This document shows, piece by piece, positions 1 through 59,306 of a stretch of 64,000 nt of DNA; the stretch's first letter is position 1; each line of letters begins with the position of its first letter. The notes beneath the pieces are model-generated. The model was given only the letters and a program-made list of their open reading frames with translations, did not search any database and was not told where the DNA came from. A program made the translations under genes and the position numbers. The stretch lies in contig CABUGH010000002.1 in assembly GCA_902491155.1 (NCBI GenBank), positions 24,211-88,210 on the forward strand, in the 5' to 3' direction. Source of the stretch: an uncultured Clostridium sp. (lineage in GTDB: Bacteria > Bacillota > Clostridia > TANB77 > CAG-508).

Positions 1-489
1 AATTTTATTGCTTGAAGCTGTTGATAGTGGTTCATAATTAAATAACTCTGCTGGTGCTATTTTAGTTTCATCAATATCTCCTGAATATATACCTTTCACA
101 TTTTTTTCTGCTGTACCTACTGTTAATTTAATATCAACTGGAACTGCTAATTTTTCTTTAGCAAACACCATATTTGTTGGAAATTCAGAATCCTCTGCTG
201 TTACATCTGTTCTATTGTAATCTTTGTTTATTCTATTTGCTAATACTTGTGGTGTTATTGTGCTTGCATCTCCCAAATTGTCTGTTATAAGCCCATTTAT
301 GCTTAATTTTGTGATCTCTTCAACTGTTGATTGATTTGTTCCTTTCTTTGCTTCTGATGCCCTTTTTAAAATTCCGTTGTCTCCACTTAATGCATTAATT
401 GTTACTGCTGCTAATATTAGTAACACGATTATTGTTATTACTAATGCTATAAGCGTAATTCCTCCTTGTTTCTTTACTTTTTTTAACAT
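1..489 (-). CDS. Surface protein with pilin-like N-terminal leader, 5' part only (gene runs off the window start)
   Basis: Hand translation of reverse strand from ATG 487-489: MLKKVKKQGGITLIALVITIIVLLILAAVTINALSGDNGILKRASEAKK...; GGAGGA RBS at 497-502; open to position 1; N-terminus paralogous to 759-2675 and 35312-37006. Confidence 0.8.
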   Translation of the reverse strand, partial: MLKKVKKQGGITLIALVITIIVLLILAAVTINALSGDNGILKRASEAKKGTNQSTVEEITKLSINGLITDNLGDASTITPQVLANRINKDYNRTDVTAEDSEFPTNMVFAKEKLAVPVDIKLTVGTAEKNVKGIYSGDIDETKIAPAELFNYEPLSTASSNKI

Positions 490-758: not shown

Positions 759-2675
759 TTATTTTTTCCAATTAACAACTCTTAATCCTTTAGGTGCACC
801 CCATGGAGATCCTGTAATTGAATTTTGCTTTTTATCTATATTTATATTTGAAAGTTTATTACAACCAGAAAAAGCATTTTCACTTATTGTTTCTACGCTT
901 GAAGGTATATCAATTGATTCTATACCTATTCCTCGAATTCTGTCAATTTTTTTTAATGTATTTGGCAATTTAACTTTAGTTATACTATTAGACCATGACA
1001 AATTATAAATAGTCTCAACACCTTCAGGAATAACAATTTCAGATTTTGCATTAACATATGTTAATAAACTTTTTCCATCTTTAGTCAAAATACAATTATC
1101 AAGTACTTTATAAATTAAGTTACCTGAATCAATTTCAAAACTTAAACTATTAGGTATCTCTGCATAATCTTTAAAATTAGCATTTATATCTTTAACATTT
1201 GTTCCTATATATATTTTAGTTAAACCTTGTAAACCCTTTCCAAATTGTTCATCTATCTTTTCAACATTTCCACCAAATCTTATTTCCGATATTTTAAATC
1301 CTTGAATTGAAGCCAGACAAATTTCTTTTACAGTATTTGGTATGTTTAATGTACTCCTTCCTGACGTTGCATAATATAATTTTGTTCCATCTTTAGAAAG
1401 TAACATATTATCCTGAACAATAAAATTTTGATTACTACTAGAGATAGTGATTTTATTTATATACTCTCTTCCTTCAAACACATTACCTATAAAAGTTTTT
1501 AGTGAACTTGGCAAAATCACTTCTTGTAAATTAGAACAATTACTAAATAATTGTGTTCCACTCAAATCCTGAACAGTATCTTCAATTTTTAAACTAGTTA
1601 CATTCTTATTCAAAGCAGAAACAAATACAATTTTTGTTTTATTTATATCATATATAATACCATTAGAAACAGCATATGATTTATTATTCGAATCTATCTG
1701 TATATCTGTTAAACTAGCTGTTTGGCTAAAAGCTGAAGGTTCTATACTATTTACACTAGCTGGTAAATACAAACTTTTTAAAGATTCACAACCTCTAAAA
1801 GCCGAATAGCCTATACCTACTAAATTTTTAGGTAACTCTATTTTTTCCAAACCTGTACAATATTGAAATACTAAGTTCTCTATATTTTTTACGTTATCTG
1901 GTAACTTTATATATTTTAAACTACTACAAACTGAAAAAGATTCTTCACCAATATCATTAAGACTTTGTGGCATGTCAATCTTTTGTAAACTTGTACATTT
2001 TTTAAAAGCACTATATCCAATCTTAGTAACGCCTTCTTGCATTATAACATTTTCCAGTGTTGTATTATATGAAAACGCATTAGCAGCTATTTCTTTTACT
2101 GTACTTGGTATTACTATTGTTTTCAAACCTTCTACACCAGAAAAAGCACCTTCTCCTATTTTTGTTACAGTTTCTGGAACCGTTACTGTTCCATCATCTG
2201 ACATTAATGCTAAATTTTTTCCTGATGACATAAGCTCTCCATTTATTATTATATAAGGATTAAAATTAACTTTAGCTATTTTTGCTGCTTCCATTTCAGA
2301 TTCATCTGTTGTATTTAGTAACAATTCGCCTTTTATTATCTCCACTTTATCTAAATACTTATCTGGCAAGTCTGGTAATATCGTTTTTATATTCCCATCC
2401 AATTGTTTACCATTATATGATAATTTAGTTTTTCCTGCTACTACTGTATCATCTTGAAAATTCGTTTCTTTTAATTCTCTTGAAGCTTTCCATTGCTTTA
2501 ATTCTTCATTATATCCTGTTAGCTCTGTTGCCAATTTTGCTATTTCAGACCTTTTTAAAATTCCATTATTTCCTTTTATTCCTGTAACAGATACTCCCGC
2601 AAGTATTAAAAGTACTATTATCGTTATTGTTAATGCTACAAGTGTTATTCCTTTGTTTATTTTTAATCTTTCCAT
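759..2675 (-). CDS. BspA-type leucine-rich-repeat surface protein with pilin-like N-terminal leader
   Basis: Track ORF 759-2687. GGAGG RBS favours the internal ATG at 2673-2675 (MERLKINKGITLVALTITIIVLLILAGV...). Body is repeated ~23-aa units of the form I..IG..AF..C..L..I.IP.SV..I. Confidence 0.85.
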   Translation of the reverse strand: MERLKINKGITLVALTITIIVLLILAGVSVTGIKGNNGILKRSEIAKLATELTGYNEELKQWKASRELKETNFQDDTVVAGKTKLSYNGKQLDGNIKTILPDLPDKYLDKVEIIKGELLLNTTDESEMEAAKIAKVNFNPYIIINGELMSSGKNLALMSDDGTVTVPETVTKIGEGAFSGVEGLKTIVIPSTVKEIAANAFSYNTTLENVIMQEGVTKIGYSAFKKCTSLQKIDMPQSLNDIGEESFSVCSSLKYIKLPDNVKNIENLVFQYCTGLEKIELPKNLVGIGYSAFRGCESLKSLYLPASVNSIEPSAFSQTASLTDIQIDSNNKSYAVSNGIIYDINKTKIVFVSALNKNVTSLKIEDTVQDLSGTQLFSNCSNLQEVILPSSLKTFIGNVFEGREYINKITISSSNQNFIVQDNMLLSKDGTKLYYATSGRSTLNIPNTVKEICLASIQGFKISEIRFGGNVEKIDEQFGKGLQGLTKIYIGTNVKDINANFKDYAEIPNSLSFEIDSGNLIYKVLDNCILTKDGKSLLTYVNAKSEIVIPEGVETIYNLSWSNSITKVKLPNTLKKIDRIRGIGIESIDIPSSVETISENAFSGCNKLSNINIDKKQNSITGSPWGAPKGLRVVNWKK

Positions 2676-2727
2676 TTGTACCTCCACTTTTTATTAAACT
2701 TAAAACTTAATTAAAATGTACATAAAA

Positions 2728-16360: not shown

Positions 16361-16467
16361 GTGATTCGGGGACGGTGATTCGGGGACGGAGCAAAAATCA
16401 TTAATGATTTTTGCTCCGTCCCCGAATCATCTCCGCTCCGTCCCCGAATCATCTCCGTTCCCGAATC
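16361..16467. repeat. GC-rich REP-like nested palindrome built from GATTCGGGGACGG units
   Basis: Perfect 52-nt palindrome at 16377-16428, plus an outer GATTCGGGGAC / GTCCCCGAATC pair and a degenerate third right-hand unit; located just after the ileS stop. Confidence 0.85.
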
Positions 16468-20122: not shown

Positions 20123-21235
20123 CTAATTTTCAAGCATTTTTTCAATTTTTAATAAAATTTTCCCATCTTTTGCAAAAATTGTTCTACTCTCTCCCTTTAC
20201 TATTTTACCATATAAAATAAATTCTGATAATTTATCTTCAACTAATGTTTGAATTATTCTCCTTAATGGTCTTGCTCCAAAGTTTTTATCAATACTTTTT
20301 TTAGTAATCAATTTTTTAACAGAATCATCTATTTGTATATTATATCCTTCATTTTCTAATATCAATTCCACTTTTTTTAACATCAAATCTATTATTTTAT
20401 AAATATCTTCATCATTCAATTTGTGGAAAACTATAATCTCATCAATACGATTTATAAATTCTGGTCTTAATTCTTTTTTTACTATCTCCATAACTTCCTT
20501 TTTAGTCTCTTCATATTGACTTTCATTTTTTTCTGATTCATTTGTATATTTAGAAAATCCAAGCAATTTCTTGTCTGTAATAATTCTTGCACCCAAATTT
20601 GACGTCATTATTATTACAGTATTCTTAAAATCAACAAATTTTCCCTGACTATCTGTTAAATGACCATCTTCTAATATCTGTAGCAAAATATTCATCACAT
20701 CTGGATGAGCTTTTTCTATCTCATCAAAAAGTATTACTGAATACGGCCTTCTCCTAATTTTTTCAGTTAATTGCCCCCCATCATCAAATCCTATATAGCC
20801 AGGAGGTGATCCTATTAATTTTGACACTGAATGTTGCTCCATATACTCTGACATATCTATTCTTATCATATCATTTTCATTACCAAAAAGCACTTCTGCC
20901 AAAGCTTTTGCTAGTTCAGTTTTTCCAACACCTGTTGGTCCTAAAAATAAAAACGAACCTATTGGTCTTTTTGGATCTTTTAATCCAACTCTTCCTCTTC
21001 TTATTGCTTTACTAACCGCTTCTACAGCCTCATTTTGTCCTATTACTCTTTTATGCAACTCTACTTCTAAATTTTTCAATTTTTTATTTTCATCTTGTGT
21101 TATTTTCTTAACTGGCACACCAGTTGTAGATGCTATAATCTCTGCAATATTTTCTTCTGATATATTTATTACAGATTTACTATACTTATTTTTCCATTTA
21201 GTTTCTTCTTTTTCATACTTTTCACCTAACTCCAT
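20123..21235 (-). CDS. clpC: ClpC ATPase, C-terminal part (second AAA+ module), separated from the N-terminal part by a frameshift
   Basis: Walker A GPTGVGKT, sensor and ClpB_D2-small motifs; this reading frame stays open upstream to about 21340 and encodes the UVR-like linker [29 protein letters not shown]. Confidence 0.85.
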   Translation of the reverse strand: MELGEKYEKEETKWKNKYSKSVINISEENIAEIIASTTGVPVKKITQDENKKLKNLEVELHKRVIGQNEAVEAVSKAIRRGRVGLKDPKRPIGSFLFLGPTGVGKTELAKALAEVLFGNENDMIRIDMSEYMEQHSVSKLIGSPPGYIGFDDGGQLTEKIRRRPYSVILFDEIEKAHPDVMNILLQILEDGHLTDSQGKFVDFKNTVIIMTSNLGARIITDKKLLGFSKYTNESEKNESQYEETKKEVMEIVKKELRPEFINRIDEIIVFHKLNDEDIYKIIDLMLKKVELILENEGYNIQIDDSVKKLITKKSIDKNFGARPLRRIIQTLVEDKLSEFILYGKIVKGESRTIFAKDGKILLKIEKMLEN

Positions 21236-21320
21236 CTCTTTATCTCGTAATTTTGCAGCATTCTCAAATCTTTGATTTAATACTGCTTCTTCTTTTTCTC
21301 TTTTTACTTTTTCGAATTCT

Positions 21321-22625
21321 TCACCGTATCTTTTTTATTTTTTCTGGTTCAATATATGATTTTAGCCTAGCACGAGATGAAGCTTCATCTATTAAATCAA
21401 TTGCCTTATCAGGTAAAAATCTATCATTTATATATCTTACAGACAAATCAACTGCCGCTTCTATAGCTTGATCTGATATTTTAACATTATGATGTGCCTC
21501 ATATTTATCTCTAATACCTTTTAATATTTCAACTGTATCTTTCTTGCTTGGCTCTTCTATTTTTACCTTATTAAATCTCCTTTCTAAAGCTATATCTTTT
21601 TCTATATATTTTCTATACTCATTTATAGTTGTAGCACCTATTAATTGAATTTCTCCTCTAGCCAATAAAGGCTTTAAAATATTTGCAGCATCAATTGCAC
21701 CTTCTGCCGCACCTGCACCAACAATTGTATGAATCTCATCCACAAACAATATTATATCCCCAGCTTTTTTTACTTCATTTAAAGCCTTTTTTATTCTTTC
21801 TTCAAAATCACCTCTATATTTTGCACCAGCCACCATTCCAGAAATATCCATTGTTACAACTCTTTTATCTTTTAAATTTTCTGGCACAGCCTCATCAACT
21901 ATTTTTTGTGCTAATCCCTCTATTATCGCTGTTTTTCCTACCCCAGGTTCTCCAACCAAACATGGATTATTTTTTGTTCTTCTTGATAATATTTGAATTA
22001 CTTTTTCTACTTCCGCATTTCTTCCTATTATAGGATCAATTTTTCCATCTTCTGCTTTTATAGTTAAATCTTCACCAAACTGATTTAATGTAGGAGTTCT
22101 GCTATAACTTCCTCTCTTCTTATTTATTTTTAATTTAGTATCTACATAATTATCATTTGATTCTATGTTTTTTGTTTTTTCAGTTATCTTTTCTCCTTCT
22201 TCTATCACATTTATTATTTCATTATATATTTTGGCAGAATTAATATTTAATTCAAATAATATTCTCATTGCTATACAATCATTTTCTTTTAAAATTCCTA
22301 CTAAAAGATGTTCTGTACCTATAAAGCTATATCCTAATTTTCTTGCTTCTATAAAAGCATTTTCTAACACTTTTTTAGTTCTTGGTGTAAAATCTGTAAC
22401 ATTATCAATTGGCTGTTCATGTCCTATAAACTCATCTATCTTTTTAGCTACTGTTTCTCCTAAAACATCTTCACTATGCAACACCTTGCCTGCAACTCCG
22501 TTTTGCTCTTTTACCAAACCATATAGCAAATGCTCTGTTCCAACATAATTGTGTCCCAAATCTTTTGCAATATTATTTGCTAATTCTATTGCTTTACTAG
22601 AACTTTTAGTAAATTTATATGTCAT
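21321..22625 (-). CDS. clpC: ClpC ATPase, N-terminal part (Clp_N repeats and first AAA+ module), ends at a frameshift
   Basis: Clp N-domain repeats and Walker A GEPGVGKT; AGGAGG RBS favours the ATG at 22623-22625; the frame stops at 21321 inside a T6-A-T6 tract. Confidence 0.85.
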
Positions 22626-22640
22626 ACGCATCCTCCTTTT

Positions 22641-22811
22641 CTATTTGCTTTTACTAGACTTTTTAGTCTTTTTATCCAATTCTTTTGCCCTTTGCTTTTG
22701 CTTTTCTGGAGGAAGCCATGCAAAATAACTTGATACAAATTCACCATAAACAGTTACATCTTCTCCAGCCTCCATATCAAATTGTATATCTTTTTTTTCT
22801 TTGTTATTCAT
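22641..22811 (-). CDS. Small hypothetical protein (56 aa) upstream of clpC
   Basis: Hand-translated MNNKEKKDIQFDMEAGEDVTVYGEFVSSYFAWLPPEKQKQRAKELDKKTKKSSKSK; weak AAGGG RBS; below the track size cut-off. Confidence 0.35.
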   Translation of the reverse strand: MNNKEKKDIQFDMEAGEDVTVYGEFVSSYFAWLPPEKQKQRAKELDKKTKKSSKSK

Positions 22812-22908
22812 AATATCACAACCCTTTCCTTATTTTCTTTATTAACATTTTTATCAATTTCTATACATATTTTTTATAAAATTACGTATAAATTTAAAAG
22901 GTGATATT

Positions 22909-23961
22909 ATGCAAAAATCGCATTTTTTTGTTATTAAATTAAAAAGAAACTTTTTTGCAATTATTTTTATTTCTTTTGCTTTCAACCTTTTACTATTTTC
23001 AAATAATAATCTAGTTGCAGTTAAAAATGGCTTAACTCTATGGGCTACTTCTGTTGTTCCTTCTCTATTTCCATTTTTTGTTGCTACAGAATTACTACTA
23101 CACACTAATATAGTAAATTTTTTAGGAAGATTATTAAATTATTTTATGAGACCCGTTTTTAATGTTGATGGTAAAGGTTCTTTTTGCTTTATAATGGGAT
23201 TAATTAGTGGTTATCCAATAGGAGCTAAAATTGCTTGTGAATTTAGAAAACAAAATATATGCTCTAAAATAGAATGTGAAAGACTCTTAAGTTTTACAAA
23301 TAATTCTGGTCCATTATTTATAGTTGGTACTGTCGGAATTAGTATGTTTGGTAATACATCTATTGGATTGCTATTACTTATTACACATATTTTAGCCTGT
23401 ATTACTGTAGGAATCATATTTAGATTTTGGAAAAATAAATCACAACATAATAATCGATCATTTAATTACACCAACTCAGCTTCAAACAATACAGTAACAT
23501 TTTCTAATTTAGGAAATGTTTTAAGTGAAAGTATTAATAGTAGTATACAATCAATCCTACTTATTGGAGGTTTTGTGGTTATTTTTTCTAGCATCATATC
23601 TATATTAACAACTAGTGGTATATTACATAATTTATCAATTTTGCTATTGCCTTTTTTTAATTTTTTACATATTGATACTCAATTTATTACCCCTTTATTA
23701 ACAGGATTTTTAGAAATTACAAATGGTATAAAAAACATATCTATAATAAAAATTAAACATATTTCAGTTAATATTATTATTACCGCTTTTTTACTAGGAT
23801 TTGGTGGAATTTCTGTATTACTACAAGTTTGGAGTATAATATCGAAAAGTAATTTATCTATAAAACCTTATATACTCGGCAAATTATTACATGGTACAAT
23901 TGCTGCTTTATACACTTTTTTAGCTTTAAACTTTATCCCTTTTCTTAACTTAGATTTATAA
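22909..23961 (+). CDS. ylbJ: Sporulation integral membrane protein YlbJ
   Basis: GLTLWATSVVPSLFPFFV..., MRPVFNVDGKGSF...GLISGYPIGAK..., LLSFTNNSGPLF match YlbJ-family signatures. Confidence 0.85.
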   Translation: MQKSHFFVIKLKRNFFAIIFISFAFNLLLFSNNNLVAVKNGLTLWATSVVPSLFPFFVATELLLHTNIVNFLGRLLNYFMRPVFNVDGKGSFCFIMGLISGYPIGAKIACEFRKQNICSKIECERLLSFTNNSGPLFIVGTVGISMFGNTSIGLLLLITHILACITVGIIFRFWKNKSQHNNRSFNYTNSASNNTVTFSNLGNVLSESINSSIQSILLIGGFVVIFSSIISILTTSGILHNLSILLLPFFNFLHIDTQFITPLLTGFLEITNGIKNISIIKIKHISVNIIITAFLLGFGGISVLLQVWSIISKSNLSIKPYILGKLLHGTIAALYTFLALNFIPFLNLDL

Positions 23962-24075
23962 TTCTAAACCAATTTTTAATTTTTCTTAATGTTAAAATTC
24001 GTAATATTAATGTAAAAATTTTTTAGTTATAATTATTTAATTATTTCATATATTCTATTAAGGAGTTGATTTTTC

Positions 24076-24294
24076 ATGGAACGTGATTTTAATAATTTTC
24101 CACCATATATGGATTCAGATTTTACTGATTTGTATCGTGACCCAATGTTTAACCCAATGATGCAATATGAGCAAGCATATTCTTATTATCGCTGTTTGTG
24201 TATGCAAATGGACTATAAATTAAAGTGTAAAGAATATGAAAAAATGTGTGGTACTCAATCAACCACAGAAAAAAATAATACTGAAAGAAGATAA
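24076..24294 (+). CDS. Hypothetical small protein (72 aa, Tyr/Met/Cys-rich)
   Basis: AAGGAG RBS, clean ORF; no family recognised. Confidence 0.55.
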   Translation: MERDFNNFPPYMDSDFTDLYRDPMFNPMMQYEQAYSYYRCLCMQMDYKLKCKEYEKMCGTQSTTEKNNTERR

Positions 24295-24393
24295 TTATTC
24301 AAAAAAGCAATTTTTTGAATTGATATTTTAAATGTTATATGTTATATTATATATATAAATTATATTATATATGTATTGCAAGGAGGAATCAAA

Positions 24394-24648: not shown

Positions 24649-24716
24649 GCTGATTCGGGGACGGAGGAACTGCTGCTCCGTCCCCGAATCAGCAGTTCCT
24701 CCGTCCCCGAATCAGC
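24649..24716. repeat. REP-like GC-rich hairpin, second locus of the GATTCGGGGACGG family
   Basis: 27-bp perfect arms 24649-24675 / 24690-24716 around a 14-nt loop that itself holds another CCGTCCCCGAAT unit; sits between convergent stops at 24627 and 24722. Confidence 0.85.
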
Positions 24717-34746: not shown

Positions 34747-35088
34747 TCTCCTTAAAATATTTACAAATTATGTACAAAACAAATTCTATTTTGTACATCT
34801 TTTTTCTCACACCCATTTTATCATAAATTTGAAAAAAGTACAGTATTTTTTAAGATTTTTTTACTTTTTAAAAAGCAAAGTTACACTTCAAGCAGTTCAC
34901 ACGTCAAATAGGAGATAAGTTTTAAATCTTATCTCCTTAATATCATTTAAATAAGTATATTTAATTTTTTTAAATTATTCATTTTAATAAGTTAATTTGC
35001 TTAATATCATATAAATACTTTTTAGTTTAAAATTTTCTTTTTACATTTCTGTATCTAACATATCTTCCTTTTATAAGCGATTAATTAA

Positions 35089-35265
35089 ATATTCGAGTAT
35101 CCTAATGCAATAAGAAAAGCCATTTACACTACAAATGCAATAGAAAGCTTATATTCTGCTTTGCGTAAGGTTACTAAAGGAAAAGGTTATTTTATCAATA
35201 AAGAGGCTTTGCTTAATGTCCTATTTTTAAGAGTAAAAGATCTTCAGGGCAAGTGGGCTAATTAA
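35089..35265 (+). pseudogene. IS256-family transposase, C-terminal remnant
   Basis: Hand translation IFEYPNAIRKAIYTTNAIESLYSALRKVTKGKGYFINKEALLNVLFLRVKDLQGKWAN-stop matches the conserved IS256 C-terminus (IYTTNAIES); only about 58 codons, no start. Confidence 0.75.
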
Positions 35266-35311
35266 ACTTTAGAATTTACACACTTAAGTTTTAAGTCACG
35301 ATTTCAAAGTG

Positions 35312-37006
35312 CTACACGACCAAAGCCGCACGGAACCCGTCGTTGTAGTGAAGGTAGCCGCTAGCGACGCCAGAATACAACACACCAGCACCACCGCCGT
35401 TGTCGCAACCGCCCCCACGTACGACGAAAGGACAAGCCAGATGGCCTATAAGAGTTAGGTCTCCATCCCACGTGTACCCGTATCCAGCACTACCTGATAC
35501 TGCATTCGCTGCTGATGTAAACCAGTTCCAACTTCCATTTGTTCCTGATGGAGCATAAAATGCAAATGTTGATGATACTTCATTTACTCCTATTCCTTTA
35601 TGATTCGCCATGTGGTCATAATTATATTTTGTTAATTTATAACGTGCTTCTTGATATTTTAATGCCGTTTTTGATCCATCCCATAATCCTGTTTCTACTG
35701 TTCCATCACTTAATGTTATTTTATTATTTTTTTCTTCTTCACTTACTTCATATGAATCCCATAAACTTGCATATCTTGAATTCAATTTTCCATTTTGAAA
35801 ATATTTTATAGTTCCATCTTCACTTACTCCATAAGCATCTAAATAACTATTAGAATTATCTAAATATCCTGCTACTCTTTCCCAAGCTCCTCCTGCCATA
35901 TCATATACACCTGTTACATTTCTTGTTGTACTTGAAAGTACTCCATTTGATGTACTGTAATTATGTGATGCATCATAACTGTAATTTCCTTCATCACCTG
36001 ATGATTTAGGTCCTTGGCCTGTATATAAATCATAGTAATGGTCACTTAACCAAGTTCCTGCCCCATTTGTCATTGGAGCACTTCCACATTCACTATAACA
36101 CAAATATGCTACTGCTCCCCATTCACTATTTTTTATTAAATGAGTATTTGCCCCACTTGTTAATCCAAAACTTGATTTTGAAGTTGTTGCTATATCCATA
36201 CTACGTTTTTCACTTTCACCTATAGATATATGTCTCCAACTTATTTTATTTGGTAAACTTTTGGCTATTGTTGTACTATCTGGTGCATATTGTTGTTCTG
36301 ATGATGAACTACTTGCATTTCCTACTGCATTTCCATCTTTATTTGTTCCACTTGCTTCAAATTTTGCTACCCAGAATCCATTTAATTCTGTTCCTCCTAA
36401 ATTAAATGCTGGATGTACTATTGCTGTTTTACTTGTATCTGTTGATTCATCTGTTGTATATATTACTCCATCTGAACCTTCATTTGTGTTACCTTTTAAG
36501 AATGTTACTTCTATATTTTTTTCTCCTGCTATTTTATAGGCATATCTTGGTATCCACACATACATACTTCCTAAATCTCTTTCTGCCACTGTTTGTCCTA
36601 CTGCAACTGTATCAGCTTTGTATGTACCATCACTTAGCATTACATTTGCCCATTCTTTTTTATCATTATAGTTGTACCATTCTGCATCATCTTGGCTACA
36701 TACTACCCAAGTATTGTTTTTCCATTTTATTGGTATCATTCCTGTTGTTACTTTTGGACTATTTGCTTTTTTATCTCTATTATATCCTTCTACTCCATTC
36801 ATTGTATCTGTAATTTCTTGTAAATTTCTTTCTTCATCTTTTTGTGCTTGTTCTGTTTTTTCTTTGGCTTCTTTAGCTTTTGTTAGTATTCCGTTATCTC
36901 CACTTAGTGCTGCTATTGTCACTCCTGCCAATATTAATAACACTATAATTGTTATTACTAATGCTATTAGCGTAATTCCTCTTGCGTTTCCAATTCTTTT
37001 TTGCAT
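35312..37006 (-). CDS. Surface protein: pilin-like N-terminal leader plus FGE-sulfatase/C-type-lectin-fold C-terminal domain with DGR-VR-like end
   Basis: GGAGGA RBS; MQKRIGNARGITLIALVITIIVLLILAGV...; ordered FGE/CLec motifs FWVAKFEAS, NSEWGAVAY, GGAWERVAG, VVRGGG, GFRAALVV-stop; GC-rich 3' end. Confidence 0.85.
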   Translation of the reverse strand: MQKRIGNARGITLIALVITIIVLLILAGVTIAALSGDNGILTKAKEAKEKTEQAQKDEERNLQEITDTMNGVEGYNRDKKANSPKVTTGMIPIKWKNNTWVVCSQDDAEWYNYNDKKEWANVMLSDGTYKADTVAVGQTVAERDLGSMYVWIPRYAYKIAGEKNIEVTFLKGNTNEGSDGVIYTTDESTDTSKTAIVHPAFNLGGTELNGFWVAKFEASGTNKDGNAVGNASSSSSEQQYAPDSTTIAKSLPNKISWRHISIGESEKRSMDIATTSKSSFGLTSGANTHLIKNSEWGAVAYLCYSECGSAPMTNGAGTWLSDHYYDLYTGQGPKSSGDEGNYSYDASHNYSTSNGVLSSTTRNVTGVYDMAGGAWERVAGYLDNSNSYLDAYGVSEDGTIKYFQNGKLNSRYASLWDSYEVSEEEKNNKITLSDGTVETGLWDGSKTALKYQEARYKLTKYNYDHMANHKGIGVNEVSSTFAFYAPSGTNGSWNWFTSAANAVSGSAGYGYTWDGDLTLIGHLACPFVVRGGGCDNGGGAGVLYSGVASGYLHYNDGFRAALVV

Positions 37007-37080
37007 TTGTTTTTCCTCCTCTTATCTTTATATTATGTTTTTTATTTAAGCACAAACTTAATTAAAACTGTATACTTATT

Positions 37081-37109
37081 TTTATATCATATGCTAACCA
37101 AAAATACAA
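37081..37109 (-). promoter_or_regulatory. Sigma-A-type promoter with extended -10 for 35312-37006
   Basis: Reverse strand TTGTAT-N17 (ending TGa)-TATAAA; paralogous to 555-583 and 2728-2756. Confidence 0.5.
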
Positions 37110-37195
37110 TATATAAATTTGATTTTTATAATTTATGATATGATCACCCTATAAAATTAATTTATGAAAAGTTCACCCTACGATATAATGGAGGT

Positions 37196-37510
37196 ATGAG
37201 AACTGTTATGAAAGATAAAGAAGAATTAAAAAAAGCAGTAATAGAAAGTTGTATTAATGGAACTATGACAATTAAAGTCGCAGCAGATAGGTTAAATTTT
37301 TCAGAGCGCTATGTAAAAAAATTGAAAGCGAGGTATAAAAAATATGGTGCTTCATCCATGACGCAAAGACCTTCAGCAGGTGAATTACTGCAAGTTGATG
37401 GCACACCTCATCAGTTTTTCTATGGTGATTCTAAAGAATATTGTTTGCATGGTTTTATTGATGATGCTACTCATCAAGTAACCGGCTTGTATATGTGTGA
37501 TCAAGTGTAG
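37196..37510 (+). pseudogene. ISNCY/IS481-like transposase, N-terminal remnant with internal deletion
   Basis: An HTH part (TIKVAADRLNFSERYVKKLKARYKKYG) is joined directly to the start of the DDE core (GELLQVDGTPHQFF....HGFIDDATH), then a stop. Confidence 0.6.
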
Positions 37511-37512
37511 AT

Positions 37513-37824
37513 TTACCAATAGAAGAATTAGCAAAAATAATAAGGAAACACTGGCAAATAGAGAATAACTTGCATTGGGTACTAGATATGTATTTTTATG
37601 AAGATTTAAGTAGAAATAGAAAAGATAATAGCATGGAGAATTTATCTATTTTGAAAAAACTATGTTATAACATAATAAAAATAGATAAAAGATATGATAG
37701 AGTTAATAAAAATGGAAATCTAGTAAAATTGAGTAGCAAAAGAAAAATGAATAGATATATAGATTATCCAGAAGATTTTGAAGAATTACTTACAACAGTA
37801 ATTCCTCAAATATATAAAATGTGA
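37513..37824 (+). pseudogene. ISAs1-family transposase, C-terminal remnant
   Basis: LPIEELAKIIRKHWQIENNLHWVLDMYFYEDLSRNRKDNSMENLSILKK matches the ISAs1 C-terminal signature (HW.IEN.LHWVLD..F.ED.SR). Confidence 0.7.
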
Positions 37825-38017
37825 TTGGTAAAATATGTCAGGGAATTATTTTACCCTATAAAAAAAGTTTTTTGTTCTTTGTCAAAAAAAATATATAATC
37901 CTTGAAATATCAATAGTTATAGACTTTAATGGTTATTGTTAAGTTTAAAGCTTAACAATAAAATTTACTATTAATAATACATGGTCTTTGCCCCTATCAT
38001 TAATTTGTAATTGCCTA

Positions 38018-38054
38018 CAAAAAAAACGCTTTAGATTTTATTTTCTAAAACGTT
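38018..38054 (-). terminator. Terminator after tsf
   Basis: Reverse strand AACGTTTTAGA-loop-TCTAAAGCGTT followed by TTTTTTTT. Confidence 0.65.
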
Positions 38055-38089
38055 CTTTTTATTATATATCTAGTTTTTCTTACAACATT

Positions 38090-38968
38090 TTATTTTATTT
38101 GTTTCATTACTTCTTCAGCAAAGTTTTCTTCTTTTTTCTCGATTCCTTCACCTTTTTCAAATCTTGCAAATTCTACAACTTCTGCATCTTTTTGTTTTAA
38201 TAATTCAGAAACTTTAATACTTGGATCTTTTACAAATGCTTGATCTACTAAGCAAATTTCTTCATAGAATTTTCCAATTCTTCCTTGTACTATTTTTTCT
38301 GCTATTGCTTCTGGTTTTCCCTCGTTCATTGTTTGAACTTTTAGAATTTCCATTTCTTTAGCTACTCTAGCTTCTGGTACTTCTTCTCTTTTTACAAATT
38401 CTGGTCTAGCTGCTGCTATTTGCATACAAATATCTTTAGATATTTCTTTATTTCCTTTTTTCATGTTTACTAAAACTGCTATTTTTCCATCACCATGGAT
38501 ATATTTTTCAACTAATCCTTCTGATTCAAATCTTGCAAATCTTCTTATACTTAAATTTTCACCTATTGTTGCAATTTTTCCAACTAATGCTTCTTGTACT
38601 GTTTTACCTTCTTCGAACATAGCAGGTTGAGCTAATAACTCTTCAACATCCTTTGGATTTGTTTTTAATACTTGATTTGCTACATTTTCAACAAATGTTT
38701 TAAATTCTTCATTTTTAGCAACAAAATCTGTTTCTGAGTTTACTTCTATTATTGCTCCTGATTTTCCATCTTCTGAAATAACTGCTTCTACTAAACCTTC
38801 TGCTGCAACTCTTCCTGATTTTTTAGCAGCTTTTGCAATTCCTCTTTCTCTTAATAATTCAATTGCTTTTTCCATATCTCCATCTGTTTCTGTTAAAACC
38901 TTTTTGCAGTCCATCATTCCTGCACCTGTTTTTTCTCTTAATTCTTTTACTAAGCTTGCTGTAATCAT
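38090..38968 (-). CDS. tsf: Elongation factor Ts
   Basis: MITASLVKELREKTGAGMMDCKK...; GGAGGA RBS before the ATG at 38966-38968, so the track N-terminal extension is rejected. Confidence 0.95.
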   Translation of the reverse strand: MITASLVKELREKTGAGMMDCKKVLTETDGDMEKAIELLRERGIAKAAKKSGRVAAEGLVEAVISEDGKSGAIIEVNSETDFVAKNEEFKTFVENVANQVLKTNPKDVEELLAQPAMFEEGKTVQEALVGKIATIGENLSIRRFARFESEGLVEKYIHGDGKIAVLVNMKKGNKEISKDICMQIAAARPEFVKREEVPEARVAKEMEILKVQTMNEGKPEAIAEKIVQGRIGKFYEEICLVDQAFVKDPSIKVSELLKQKDAEVVEFARFEKGEGIEKKEENFAEEVMKQIK

Positions 38969-58160: not shown

Positions 58161-59306
58161 TTATCTATAATCTGTTACACTTAATGCAGGATATTGATAT
58201 GTTTCTCCTCCATCTGTAAATTGCCCATTTGATATATGATCTCTATTAATATATGAACTCCCCCTTAAAAAATATTTATATTTTGTTTCATTTCCAACTT
58301 TACCATTTCCTATAATTACAGGATCATCCCATGTACAATCAACAGCATACCAATTTTGATTTATTTGTACATAATTCCACGCATGATTTTCTGTTGTTCC
58401 ATTTGAATTTGTAGCTTTTCCTATTACCATAACACATGGAATATTCATATTATCTAACAAATATTTAAATGCTTTTGCATAACCCTCACAAACACATTTA
58501 TTTTTTACTAAAGCTCCATAAATATCATATATATTATTTTGTGATACTGCTGTATCATAATCAACATTATTTATCAAATAATCATGAGCCAATTTTATAT
58601 CACTATACACATTATTTGTTTTTTGTGTAACAATCTGATTTTTTGTTTGTTCTACCATCTTAATAGCCTCTTCTACTTCACTTTGTGAATTAAAATCATC
58701 TGTAAAATAATTTGGTTTGTCTCCATTATTTATAAAAACATTATATGTTTTTTTCTTTCTTTTTGTAATTGTTTCTATATTCAAATACAATTTATTTGCA
58801 GAAATATAAAAAACATCTGGATTGTCATATAAATATGTTTCTACTGCCGACTGATAATATTGTCCCAATAGATTTTCTCCATTTTCTTTTTCCAAAATAC
58901 TTGTAAATGATGTCCCTAAATCAATCCTAGCCGTTCCAGTTTTTAAATTCTCTTTATTAGATTCAAGAGCTTTATATATTGTTTTTGAATAATCATTTAA
59001 TTGATTATAAAAATATTTATTTATCTGAACATTACTATAATTTGTATCTTCTTTTGTTCCTGACGATGAATTTATTATTTGATTTATTTTATCTTTTACG
59101 ACTTGTGGTGTTGTTATCTTTTTTGAGTCTTGTACAGAGTTGTCTGTTGCTGGATTATATGTAGATACAAAATTTTCTACTATTTGACTTGAATCCTCAC
59201 CCATTATGTCTTGATATATTAATACTCCAAATAATCCTAGAACAACAATAATTAAAATCATCACAATTGTCATGATAAAACTTGCAAAACCATTTTTCAT
59301 ATTCAT
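58161..59306 (-). CDS. Membrane-anchored transglutaminase-like cysteine protease domain protein
   Basis: N-terminal TM; core C..GYAKAF....., HAWN and D (CVCEGYA...HAWNYV...AVDCTWDD). Confidence 0.8.
   Translation of the reverse strand: MNMKNGFASFIMTIVMILIIVVLGLFGVLIYQDIMGEDSSQIVENFVSTYNPATDNSVQDSKKITTPQVVKDKINQIINSSSGTKEDTNYSNVQINKYFYNQLNDYSKTIYKALESNKENLKTGTARIDLGTSFTSILEKENGENLLGQYYQSAVETYLYDNPDVFYISANKLYLNIETITKRKKKTYNVFINNGDKPNYFTDDFNSQSEVEEAIKMVEQTKNQIVTQKTNNVYSDIKLAHDYLINNVDYDTAVSQNNIYDIYGALVKNKCVCEGYAKAFKYLLDNMNIPCVMVIGKATNSNGTTENHAWNYVQINQNWYAVDCTWDDPVIIGNGKVGNETKYKYFLRGSSYINRDHISNGQFTDGGETYQYPALSVTDYR

What the first reader, a model, noticed from the sequence alone, without database searches (positions are those of the whole stretch)
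35312..35446. A-depleted, GC-rich NNC/NNT-codon tail in an FGE/C-type-lectin domain: looks like a DGR variable region without a local retroelement
Seen: the last ~135 nt of the 564-aa gene are compositionally alien. By hand count the final 108 nt (35312-35419) are about 62% G+C with only 13 A on the coding strand, in a window that is otherwise AT-rich with A-rich coding strands. The codons read TGC GAC AAC GGC GGT GGT GCT GGT GTG TTG TAT TCT GGC GTC GCT AGC GGC TAC CTT CAC TAC AAC GAC. Almost all are NNC/NNT, which is the footprint expected when AAC/AAT template codons undergo adenine-specific mutagenesis. The protein carries FGE-sulfatase/CLec-fold hallmarks in order: FWVAKFEAS, NSEWGAVAY, GGAWERVAG, VVRGGG, GFRAALVV-stop. 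The scrambled stretch lies exactly between RGG and GFR. Established: that is where variable regions sit in CLec-fold DGR targets such as Bordetella Mtd and Treponema TvpA. Not seen: I found no reverse transcriptase, avd or template repeat in these 64 kb, and the immediate downstream DNA is an IS256 remnant. Inference: either a remote DGR target served in trans, or an orphan VR left after IS-mediated loss of the cassette. The pilin-like leader would place the variable lectin domain on the cell surface.
Basis: partly seen in the sequence, partly recalled or inferred. Interest (0 to 1): 0.8.

Follow-up and report, generated by a model that had tools for sequence, protein, structure and literature searches.

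The report
Orphan-looking DGR variable region in pilin-like lectin
The odd GC-rich tail is a real variable region written by a diversity-generating retroelement (DGR) at the end of a pilin-like surface lectin gene of an uncultured gut bacterium, but the retroelement was found only in a sister lineage, and here the tail behaves as a fixed allele, so it is a known kind of system.

Summary
Window 35304-35440 (minus strand) is the most GC-rich stretch of the 64 kb (62% against 28%).

It is a DGR variable region. A 137-nt template repeat in related contigs, 133 nt downstream of an MSL-Avd-RT gene set, matches it with 22 mismatches, 19 at template adenines (Fisher p = 2e-11). The modelled protein (pLDDT 87.6) matches a solved DGR variable protein, Thermus aquaticus TaqVP (Foldseek E = 1.5e-9).

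No RT, Avd, MSL or template repeat lies in the window. Every displayed place from about 75 RT-bearing contigs read belongs to a sister lineage. There the module sits between a target gene and 77aa-Gate-clpC. The window has both boundaries, separated by pyrH...polC, with an IS256 remnant next to the target.

- Module-adjacent variable regions differ in every contig (14 of 14).
- The window's locus carries five alleles in 21 instances.
- The window's allele is identical in at least 24 contigs and carries one non-adenine change.

I lean towards an orphan, no-longer-serviced variable region (about 0.6). A remote target still served in trans is the main rival (about 0.3). This is a new member of a known kind, of modest interest.

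The parts
35312..37006 (-). Target gene ('T'), 564 aa: pilin-like N-terminus, long ectodomain and a C-terminal C-type-lectin-fold domain that ends in the variable region.
   Evidence: ORF. There are 7876 homologues at E <= 0.001. The AlphaFold2 model has pLDDT 87.6 and pTM 0.85.
36902..37006 (-). N-terminal pilin-like segment (residues 1-35: MQKRIGNARG|ITLIALVITIIVLLILAGVTIAAL): a short basic leader followed by a hydrophobic helix.
   Evidence: Pfam N_methyl gives only E = 0.43 for this protein; 3 of 27 homologues hit at E < 0.01. A profile search finds weak PDB hits to the N-termini of geopilin, PilE1 and MshA, E = 0.03-0.9. The model has a helix at residues 12-35. The same leader occurs on other ORFs in the window.
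35312..36439 (-). C-type-lectin / FGE-like fold region (about residues 190-564; approximate boundary).
   Evidence: The best Foldseek PDB hit is 5vf4, Thermus aquaticus DGR variable protein TaqVP: E = 1.5e-9, probability 1.00, TM-score 0.47 normalised to the target. TvpA (2y3c) ranks 14. phmmer finds three collinear motif matches to 5vf4. Pfam FGE-sulfatase hits 8 of 27 homologues, best E = 1.5e-4.
35304..35440 (-). Variable region: the 137 nt homologous to the template repeat found in relatives. It covers the last 43 codons, including the stop, plus 8 nt beyond the stop.
   Evidence: Ungapped alignment to the template repeat of L001 (16414-16550, minus strand): 22 mismatches, 19 at template adenines (15 A>G, 3 A>T, 1 A>C). 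Fisher p = 2.2e-11.
35339..35440 (-). Mutagenised tract (102 nt). Adenine-site differences run from 35433 to 35341. Template codons AAY x12, AAA, TAT, AGT, TTA, ATC and ACT are rewritten to G, D, S, Y, H, V, A, C and so on.
   Evidence: Codon table. The same codon positions vary among homologues that are 92-97% identical and among 30 or more variable-region instances.
35352..35352 (-). The only non-adenine change inside the tract: template CCT (Pro) is CTT (Leu) here. It occurs only in this allele.
   Evidence: Every other variable region and every template repeat keeps CCT at this codon. I read this as a point mutation that arose after the last retrohoming event (inference).
35304..35338 (-). 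Invariant GC-rich 3' segment (GGGTTCCGTGCGGCTTTGGTCGTGTAGCACTTTGA), a candidate for the initiation-of-mutagenic-homing (IMH) site. Every variable region reads CACTTTGA where the template repeat reads CACTTCGA.
   Evidence: No function was tested. No significant hairpin follows it (z = 0.25).
35101..35265 (+). IS256-family transposase C-terminal remnant, lying between the target gene's 3' flank and pyrH.
   Evidence: Pfam PF00872 at profile positions 325-377 of 379, E = 1.9e-7. Homology to relatives' target loci ends at about 35257. A 104-nt deletion variant of this junction exists in other strains.
37196..37824 (+). Two short IS-remnant-like ORFs between tsf and the target gene (37196-37510, a transposase-type HTH; 37570-37824, with no significant Pfam hit).
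   Evidence: HTH_28 E = 6.7e-6 and HTH_Tnp_1 E = 0.066 for the first ORF only. Other strains carry Big_2 and PDDEXK_2 genes plus IS256 fragments at this position.
20123..24297 (.). clpC (split into two ORFs), a 56-aa gene, a Gate-domain gene and a 77-aa gene. In the sister lineage this block is the far boundary of the DGR module. Here it is followed by a GC-rich repeat and polC, with no module.
   Evidence: blastn gives 76% identity to L091/L092/L123/L126; tblastn. All 10 displayed contexts of the window's Gate protein lack a module.

Best explanation
The tail is a genuine DGR variable region. Its sequence was produced by mutagenic retrohoming. In that process a 137-nt template repeat is transcribed, then reverse-transcribed by an error-prone DGR reverse transcriptase (RT) that misincorporates opposite template adenines, and the cDNA replaces the 3' end of the target gene upstream of a GC-rich invariant segment. 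This diversifies the ligand-binding face of a C-terminal C-type-lectin-fold domain on a pilin-like surface protein.

Shown here:
- the match between the template repeat and the variable region;
- the adenine-specific mismatches;
- the fold;
- the hypervariability among homologues;
- the module MSL-Avd-RT-template repeat (followed by an AAA_14 gene and a target) in related contigs.

Inferred: in the window's own lineage the variable region is no longer being rewritten. No module was seen in that lineage. The module was either lost, with the IS256 remnant at the target's 3' flank as a candidate scar, or never present, with target genes or variable-region alleles arriving by recombination from the DGR-bearing sister lineage. 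The window's sequence is therefore a fixed, slowly drifting allele of a lectin adhesin and not an actively diversifying site.
For: DGR origin:
- Template repeat against the window's variable region: 137 nt, 22 mismatches, 19 at template adenines, Fisher p = 2.2e-11.
- The template repeat is 137/137 identical in 12 loci. It lies 133 nt 3' of an RT (RVT_1, E = 3.7e-13) that is preceded by bAvd (E = 1.5e-18) and a MutS_I protein (E = 2.9e-10).
- Homologues differ at the same codons.
- The fold matches TaqVP, E = 1.5e-9.

No module here:
- blastn and tblastn find none in the window.
- Every displayed place for four RT variants (P0121, P0123, P0392 and P0407; about 75 contigs read, 23 places shown) is the same sister-lineage locus, recG...clpC-Gate-77aa-MSL-Avd-RT. 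Its clpC-Gate block, checked by blastn in six of these loci, is only 76% identical to the window's.
- In that lineage the module lies between a target gene and 77aa-Gate-clpC (L001 and L022). The window has both boundaries 11 kb apart, and the space between is filled by pyrH...polC.
- All 10 displayed contexts of the window's own Gate protein lack a module.

Quiescence:
- Module-adjacent variable regions are 14 of 14 distinct. L093 and L094 have 0 mismatches in 7087 nt of flank but 18 of 137 in the variable region.
- The window's locus shows 5 alleles in 21 instances.
- The window's exact protein is indexed in 57 blocks, and at least 24 contigs carry it. It persists across flanks with up to 52 mismatches in 21.7 kb, and on a gene body that differs at 20 sites.
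- At this locus a different allele always comes with 9 or more gene-body mismatches, as expected for import by recombination and not for in-place homing.
- The tract carries one non-adenine change, at 35352. The L121 allele carries more.
Against: - Only 64 kb of the genome is visible, so a module elsewhere cannot be excluded.
- Five alleles at one locus, in strains whose flanks are about 99% or more identical in all but the most diverged contigs (L090, L122), differ almost only at template-adenine positions. For example, the window and L086 differ at 17 variable-region sites, 16 of them adenine sites, against 0.33% background divergence. In-place homing by a trans-acting DGR would explain this simply.
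- The candidate IMH segment is intact, and the tract has not decayed: 15 adenines are unmutated and it is 99% identical to the template repeat at non-adenine sites.
- Even in the DGR-bearing lineage, a second target 5 kb from the template repeat shares alleles between samples (L001 = L105, nearly = L101). Slow turnover is therefore not proof of orphan status.
- The RT look-ups covered only RT variants at least 92% identical to the reference RT (members of its two closest 90% clusters plus P0123).
- The absence of any shared sample between RT-bearing contigs and window-type contigs is statistically underpowered.
- The relationship of the two lineages is uneven: 91% identity at rpsB-tsf-Big_2 but 76% at clpC-Gate. 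'Sister lineage' is therefore itself an inference.
Confidence: 0.6

Rival explanations
1. This is a remote (non-adjacent) DGR target that is still served in trans. The same genome carries an MSL-Avd-RT-template repeat module outside the 64-kb window. That module occasionally rewrites this variable region, at a much lower rate than its adjacent target.
For: - Five adenine-site-only alleles sit on near-identical backgrounds at this locus.
- The candidate IMH segment and 20 nt of downstream flank are identical to those of module-adjacent targets.
- The variable region is 99% identical to the template repeat at non-adenine positions.
- Remote targets are documented: 45 of 372 DGRs have non-adjacent targets, and 10 have targets more than 100 kb away, mostly in non-phage DGRs. 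MSL-type DGRs include the Legionella element (PMC5758913).
- A second target in the DGR-bearing lineage also turns over slowly.
Against: - No RT context attributable to the window's lineage appeared among the displayed places of about 75 RT-bearing contigs read, although the lineage is common (its PyrH protein is indexed in 277 blocks).
- Both positions that hold the module in the sister lineage are empty here.
- At this locus there is no case of an identical gene body carrying a different variable region.
- The window's allele carries a non-adenine substitution that another round of homing would have erased.
Confidence: 0.32
2. This is not a DGR product. The GC-rich tail is a recombined or horizontally acquired 3' end, and its resemblance to a variable region is coincidental.
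For: A homologue (L125, protein P0028) has a gene body 96% identical up to window 35493, followed by a completely different AT-rich tail (34% G+C, 49% identity to the template repeat). The 3' end is therefore an exchangeable cassette.
Against: - 19 of 22 differences from a real template repeat fall on adenines (p = 2e-11).
- That template repeat lies 133 nt downstream of an RT that is preceded by Avd.
- More than 30 independent variable-region instances vary only at those adenines.
Confidence: 0.02
3. This is an assembly artefact. A variable region from a co-resident DGR-bearing relative was joined by mistake onto this lineage's gene, through sequence the two share.
For: Chimeric contigs of this kind do exist in the data. 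L108 and L112 join a variable-region tract to the template repeat's downstream flank. Many contigs also break inside target genes.
Against: The identical gene, variable region and IS256-remnant junction recur in at least 24 contigs from independent samples, studies and assemblers, some 99.98-100% identical to the window over 21 kb.
Confidence: 0.02

Closest known systems
Bordetella phage BPP-1 DGR (Mtd target; avd-TR-brt)
   Same: Adenine-specific differences between template repeat and variable region. The variable region sits at the C-terminal end of a C-type-lectin-fold receptor-binding protein. An Avd accessory protein and a DGR-type RT are present. A GC-rich invariant segment lies at the variable region's 3' end and differs slightly from its counterpart in the template repeat.
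   Different: This element is cellular, not phage-borne (no hit in viral contigs). In relatives the template repeat lies 3' of the RT (avd-RT-TR order). An extra MutS_I (MSL) gene is present. No significant hairpin follows the variable region. In the window itself there is no cassette at all.
Thermus aquaticus DGR variable protein TaqVP (PDB 5vf4)
   Same: It is the best structural match to the modelled protein (Foldseek E = 1.5e-9). Collinear motifs are shared (HPAF..W..F, HL..N.EW.AVA.L, G..D..G..WE.VA, RGG...G..AG).
   Different: Only 15-17% identity. The window protein is longer (564 aa against about 385). It has a pilin-like N-terminal helix, a coiled region, and extra insertions between the fold elements.
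Treponema denticola TvpA DGR, and DGRs with remote targets (Wu et al. 2018, PMC5758913)
   Same: Several paralogous C-type-lectin-fold targets share one template repeat, and some are not adjacent to the RT. TvpA (2y3c) appears among the weaker Foldseek hits (rank 14).
   Different: The Treponema DGR uses an HRDC accessory gene, not MSL. In Treponema the remote targets and the RT are in one genome. Here the RT was seen only in a different lineage from the window's.
MSL-containing DGRs (architecture D of Wu et al. 2018; includes the Legionella pneumophila DGR)
   Same: The relatives' module has a small MutS_I-domain protein (145 aa) directly upstream of avd, as described for MSL proteins (112-283 aa, always together with avd).
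   Different: The target is a pilin-like protein and not a lipoprotein-type surface protein (the Legionella target type is from my own knowledge, not tested here). An AAA_14/DUF4143 ATPase gene always lies between the template repeat and the adjacent target.
Bacteroides DGRs that diversify Type V pilus adhesins (bioRxiv 10.1101/2024.11.15.621889)
   Same: A gut commensal DGR aimed at a pilus-associated adhesive protein.
   Different: Different phylum and a different pilus system. Here the leader is type-IV-pilin-like and the host is an uncultured low-GC Clostridia lineage. Only the abstract of that preprint was used.

Membership tests
DGR variable region / target gene | A template repeat of about 100-150 nt whose differences from the variable region fall almost only at template adenines. 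| tested here: met
   137 nt, 22 mismatches, 19 at adenines, Fisher p = 2.2e-11. However, the template repeat comes from related contigs (L001, L022, L091-L100) and not from the window.
DGR variable region / target gene | A DGR-type reverse transcriptase next to the template repeat in the same genome. | tested here: not met
   None in the 64-kb window (tblastn). It is present 133 nt from the template repeat in relatives (RVT_1, E = 3.7e-13). The rest of this genome could not be searched.
DGR variable region / target gene | An accessory gene (avd, HRDC, MSL or CH1) in the cassette. | tested here: not met
   Absent from the window. In relatives, bAvd (E = 1.5e-18) and MutS_I/MSL (E = 2.9e-10) lie directly upstream of the RT.
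DGR variable region / target gene | The variable region is at the C-terminus of a C-type-lectin (or Ig) fold domain. | tested here: met
   Model pLDDT 87.6. Foldseek matches TaqVP (5vf4) at E = 1.5e-9, probability 1.00. The variable region is the last 42 codons.
DGR variable region / target gene | Hypervariability in populations confined to template-adenine positions. | tested here: met
   Across paralogues and orthologues, about 30 distinct tracts vary almost only at adenine sites. At the window's own locus there are only 5 alleles in 21 instances, and the window's allele is invariant in at least 24 contigs.
DGR variable region / target gene | An IMH element at the variable region's 3' end that differs from IMH* in the template repeat, plus a downstream hairpin or cruciform (Bordetella paradigm). 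| tested here: inconclusive
   A 35-nt GC-rich invariant segment is present. It has one consistent difference between variable regions and template repeats (CACTTTGA against CACTTCGA). No significant hairpin follows it (z = 0.25). Function is not testable here.
Pfam FGE-sulfatase (PF03781) | A match to the family profile above the gathering score. | tested here: not met
   No hit for the window protein even at E <= 1. 8 of 27 diverse homologues hit weakly, best E = 1.5e-4. The relationship is at the level of fold only.
Type IV pilin-like (class III signal peptide) proteins | An N-terminal basic leader, a G|(F/I)TL(I/L)E cleavage/methylation motif and a hydrophobic alpha-1 helix. | tested here: inconclusive
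   The sequence is ...NARG|ITLIALVITIIVLL..., with Ala instead of the usual Glu at +5. Pfam N_methyl gives E = 0.43. 3 of 27 homologues hit at E < 0.01. There are weak profile hits to pilin N-termini in the PDB. A prepilin peptidase and assembly genes were not examined.
IS256 family transposase (remnant) | A match to Transposase_mut (PF00872). | tested here: met
   Window 35101-35265 (+) matches profile positions 325-377 of 379, E = 1.9e-7, 30.8 bits against a cut-off of 21. Only the C-terminal 54 codons remain.

The most novel reading that the evidence does not exclude
The window's lineage has no DGR of its own. Its small set of variable-region alleles (five seen) would then be 'second-hand' diversity: adhesin tips written by the sister lineage's DGR, imported by recombination into an IS-ridden island between tsf and pyrH, and kept as discrete long-lived alleles. 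If so, DGR output would be shared horizontally with relatives that lack a DGR.
Probability: 0.25. Interest if true: 0.55.

Novelty: new member of a known kind. Interest (0 to 1): 0.35.

Why it matters
The result gives a clean answer to a common annotation problem: a DGR-type variable region with no retroelement nearby. It also shows how to settle such a case with population data. The template repeat can be found in relatives, and allele turnover can be compared between the module-adjacent copy (a new variable region in every sample, with identical flanks) and the distant copy (a handful of fixed alleles).

The target is a pilin-like lectin in an uncultured low-GC gut Clostridia lineage. Pilin-like proteins of such uncultured clades (TANB77) have been linked to host immune effects (PMC11680825). 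Whether this organism belongs to TANB77 was not tested.

None of this changes what is known about how DGRs work.

Tried and rejected
- **Template repeat in the window.** blastn with word size 7 on both strands found nothing better than chance.
- **RT, Avd and MSL in the window.** tblastn found nothing. A 381-aa ORF at 58161-59306 has the same length as the RT but is unrelated.
- **First structure model.** An alignment of close homologues (A1) gave pLDDT 42 and was unusable. Profiles from A1 and A2 searched against PDB sequences gave only E = 0.01-0.14 for 5vf4. The fold was settled only with the diverse alignment A2 plus Foldseek.
- **Recalled identity of 5vf4.** I first recalled it as the archaeal AvpA. 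The library names it Thermus aquaticus TaqVP, so I corrected this.
- **Metagenome pattern scan.** The scan for the candidate IMH segment gave only 12 loci. It did not include JGI sample 3300029587, which carries a window-type contig, so it could not test co-occurrence. Two of the hits (L108 and L112) are assembly chimeras.
- **Viral contigs.** No hits, so there is no evidence for a phage-borne cassette.
- **GGTC/GGTT as a locus marker.** I considered the synonymous GGTC/GGTT site in the IMH-like segment as a marker of locus identity. I rejected it because both states occur with several flank types.
- **Bordetella-like hairpin after the variable region.** None was found (z = 0.25), and the small AT-rich stem is not conserved in module-adjacent targets.
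- **Sample co-occurrence.** About 17 window-lineage samples and about 28 RT samples share no sample. Only about 1.6 overlaps would be expected even if every window-lineage genome had the RT, so the test is uninformative.
- **GTDB representative genomes.** The best hit (L006, a 1560-nt contig) matches the sister lineage's upstream flank and not the window's, so it did not identify the window's species.
Full report
**The observation**

The minus-strand ORF 35312-37006 encodes 564 aa. Its last 108 nt are 62% G+C and 11% A. The whole gene is 35% G+C and 41% A, and the window mean is 28.4% G+C (sd 5.6%). This is the most GC-rich 108-nt or 135-nt stretch in the whole window. The other GC-rich spots are short palindromic repeats unrelated to this feature.

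**Is it a DGR variable region?**

The window contains no second copy of the tail (blastn with word size 7).

A protein search found 7876 homologues. Those that are 92-97% identical differ from the window protein almost only at fixed positions in the last 45 or so residues: HLA[x]PFV[x]RGG[x]C[xx]G[S/G][x]AGVL[x]S[x][I/V/F][T/A][x]G[x]P[xxxx]GFRAALVV.

One such homologue (P0015) lies on a 1.0-Mb contig (L001). That contig carries two target paralogues, an AAA_14 gene and, on the opposite strand, genes for a MutS_I protein, Avd and an RT. A 137-nt sequence lies 133 nt downstream of the RT stop codon (L001 16414-16550). This is the template repeat.
- Against L001's two variable regions it shows 18 and 11 mismatches, of which 17 and 10 are at adenines.
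- Against the window (35304-35440) it shows 22 mismatches, 19 at adenines: 15 A>G, 3 A>T and 1 A>C. Fisher p = 2.2e-11.

In frame, the template repeat encodes LAYPFVKRGGNCNNGSNAGVLYSNITNGNPNNNNGFRAALVV. Pfam confirms RVT_1, bAvd and MutS_I for the module proteins. A small MutS-like (MSL) accessory gene next to avd, and the avd-RT-TR gene order, are both described DGR architectures (PMC5758913).

**The protein**

Sequence searches are weak. There is no Pfam hit to FGE-sulfatase, and phmmer against the PDB gives E = 0.0096 to 5vf4, in three collinear motif blocks.

A model built from close homologues failed (pLDDT 42). A model built from an alignment of diverse representatives reached pLDDT 87.6 and pTM 0.85. 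Its best PDB match is the Thermus aquaticus DGR variable protein TaqVP (5vf4): E = 1.5e-9, probability 1.00. Treponema TvpA appears among the weaker hits. Eight of 27 diverse homologues hit Pfam FGE-sulfatase weakly.

The N-terminus (…NARG|ITLIALVITIIVLL…) is pilin-like, but profile support is weak.

**Where is the retroelement?**

The window holds no RT, Avd or MSL.

I looked up four RT variants (P0121, P0123, P0392 and P0407) and about 75 contigs were read. Every place displayed (23 in all) is the same chromosomal locus: recG…aspS-clpC-56aa-Gate-77aa-(±GT2-YfhO)-MSL-Avd-RT-template repeat-AAA_14-target. In the six of these loci that I compared with the window by blastn, the clpC-Gate block is only 76% identical in DNA to the window's own clpC-Gate-77aa block at 20.1-24.3 kb (about 80% at the protein level for ClpC). 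The rpsB-tsf-Big_2 region of L001 is 91% identical to the window lineage.

I therefore treat the RT-bearing contigs as a sister lineage. The uneven identity (91% against 76%) leaves the exact relationship open.

In L001 and L022 the module lies between a target gene and 77aa-Gate-clpC. The window has both boundaries 11 kb apart:
- The interval is filled by the conserved pyrH-frr-…-polC block.
- An IS256 remnant sits at the target's 3' flank.
- A GC-rich repeat sits next to the 77-aa gene.

The 10 displayed contexts of the window's own Gate protein never show a module. One of them, L137, is 100% identical to the window over 21 kb.

**Is this variable region being rewritten?**

I grouped every variable-region instance in the fetched loci by its 3' flank.

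| Variable-region location | Instances | Distinct tracts |
|---|---|---|
| Adjacent to the module | 14 | 14 |
| The window's locus (tsf…pyrH, both junction variants) | 21 | 5 |
| Second target in the sister lineage | 6 | 5 |

- **Module-adjacent copies.** Contigs with 0-1 mismatch in 7087 nt of flank differ at 18-21 of 137 variable-region positions.
- **The window's locus.** An unbiased look-up through the neighbouring PyrH protein gave four alleles in nine places. The window's exact protein is indexed in 57 blocks, and at least 24 contigs carry it. Their flanks differ from the window by 4 to 52 mismatches per 21.7 kb. The same tract also sits on a gene body with 20 differences and a different downstream junction (L120).
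- **Second target in the sister lineage.** One allele is shared by three samples. Secondary targets therefore turn over more slowly even where the DGR is present.

At the window's locus a different allele always comes with 9 or more gene-body mismatches. I found no case of an identical body carrying a different variable region. The window's tract has one non-adenine change (CCT>CTT at 35352) that is absent from all other variable regions and template repeats.

Some evidence points the other way. The window and L086 share the same IS-flanked architecture and differ by 0.33% in their flanks, yet they differ at 17 variable-region positions, 16 of them adenine sites. The alleles were therefore made by a DGR, either in place or elsewhere and then moved in by recombination.

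**Interpretation**

DGR origin is essentially certain. I favour the orphan or quiescent reading at about 0.6, for four reasons:
- no module at either syntenic position;
- no RT context from this lineage among the displayed places of about 75 RT-bearing contigs read;
- fixed alleles that are linked to gene-body mosaicism;
- a non-adenine substitution inside the tract.

Trans service from a module outside the window remains plausible (about 0.3). The candidate IMH segment is intact, the tract has not decayed, and remote targets are well documented. Non-DGR and assembly-artefact explanations are effectively excluded.

A homologue with a 96% identical gene body but an AT-rich, non-variable tail (L125) shows that the roughly 190-nt 3' end behaves as an exchangeable cassette.

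**Comparison with known systems and novelty**

This is a C-type-lectin-fold DGR target of the TaqVP/TvpA/Mtd kind. The cognate module in relatives has an MSL-avd-RT-TR architecture. It is cellular and not phage-borne: the viral-contig scan found no hits.

Remote targets are known in DGR surveys, although metagenome surveys miss them by design. The pilin-like leader on the target, and the contrast in turnover between adjacent and distant copies, are useful details but not new principles. I rate this a new member of a known kind, interest 0.35.

The most novel reading still open is that a lineage without a DGR holds variable-region alleles made by its sister lineage's DGR (probability about 0.25).

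Noticed in passing
window 16363-16467 and 24652-24713: The GC-rich 13-mer CCGTCCCCGAATC occurs 8 times (0.01 expected by chance). The copies form two inverted arrays at gene ends, one after RNase Y/ileS and one between the 77-aa gene and polC. Many independent assemblies of this lineage break at the second array, which suggests a dispersed REP-like palindromic element.
   Followed up: partly
window 20123-22631 (-), junction near 21335-21341: clpC is split into two ORFs (436/434 aa and 370 aa) by a +1 frameshift in an A-run. The split appears in all 9 of the 10 displayed contigs of this lineage that include both halves (L137-L144, plus L145 partially), so it is not an assembly error. The sister lineage has an intact 841-aa ClpC.
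   Followed up: partly
window 1-489 (-) and 759-2687 (-): Two more genes begin with nearly the same pilin-like leader (…GGITLIALVITIIVLLILAAV…) as the DGR target. One runs off the window's start. They lack the C-terminal lectin/variable-region part.
   Followed up: no
L125 10001-11707 (ENA ERZ28614647 scaffold_1948); homology break at window ~35493: A homologue (P0028) is 96% identical to the window gene up to window 35493. It then has a completely different, AT-rich (34% G+C) tail that is invariant across the many clusters listed and keeps the motif skeleton (GHLA..F..R.G.C..G..AG.LYS..T.G.....GFR). It sits in a cluster of pilin-like genes with no DGR within 10 kb.
   Followed up: partly
window 34750-38090 (between pyrH and tsf): The target gene and its IS remnants are inserted inside the normally contiguous rpsB-tsf-pyrH-frr block. 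Other strains carry, at the same place, a Big_2 pilin-like gene, a PDDEXK_2 gene, IS256 fragments, one or two tandem target genes, or an IS21 element directly upstream of pyrH where the contig ends (L090, L115, L117, L122). The site is a rearrangement hot spot.
   Followed up: partly
window 35203-35305 versus L115, L117, L119 and L120: A 104-nt deletion polymorphism just after the stop codon removes the last 5 nt of the IMH-like segment and part of the IS256 remnant. It occurs with three different variable-region alleles, which implies recombination among strains.
   Followed up: partly
L001 14797-16050; L091-L100, L123, L126-L131: An AAA_14/DUF4143 ATPase gene lies between the template repeat and the module-adjacent target in all but two of the sister-lineage loci that extend beyond the template repeat (L100 and L132 lack it). 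A 2.8-kb YfhO + glycosyltransferase insertion is polymorphic between MSL and the 77-aa gene. Whether the ATPase is part of the DGR is unknown.
   Followed up: no
window 24076-24297 (+): The 77-aa gene next to Gate is inverted relative to its orientation in the sister lineage, where it directly precedes the DGR module.
   Followed up: no
L108 (OHMS01008158.1) and L112 (OLPQ01002822.1): These short-read contigs join a mutated variable-region tract to the template repeat's downstream flank. They are most likely chimeras formed through the shared 35-nt segment. This is a caution for automated DGR calling in this family.
   Followed up: partly
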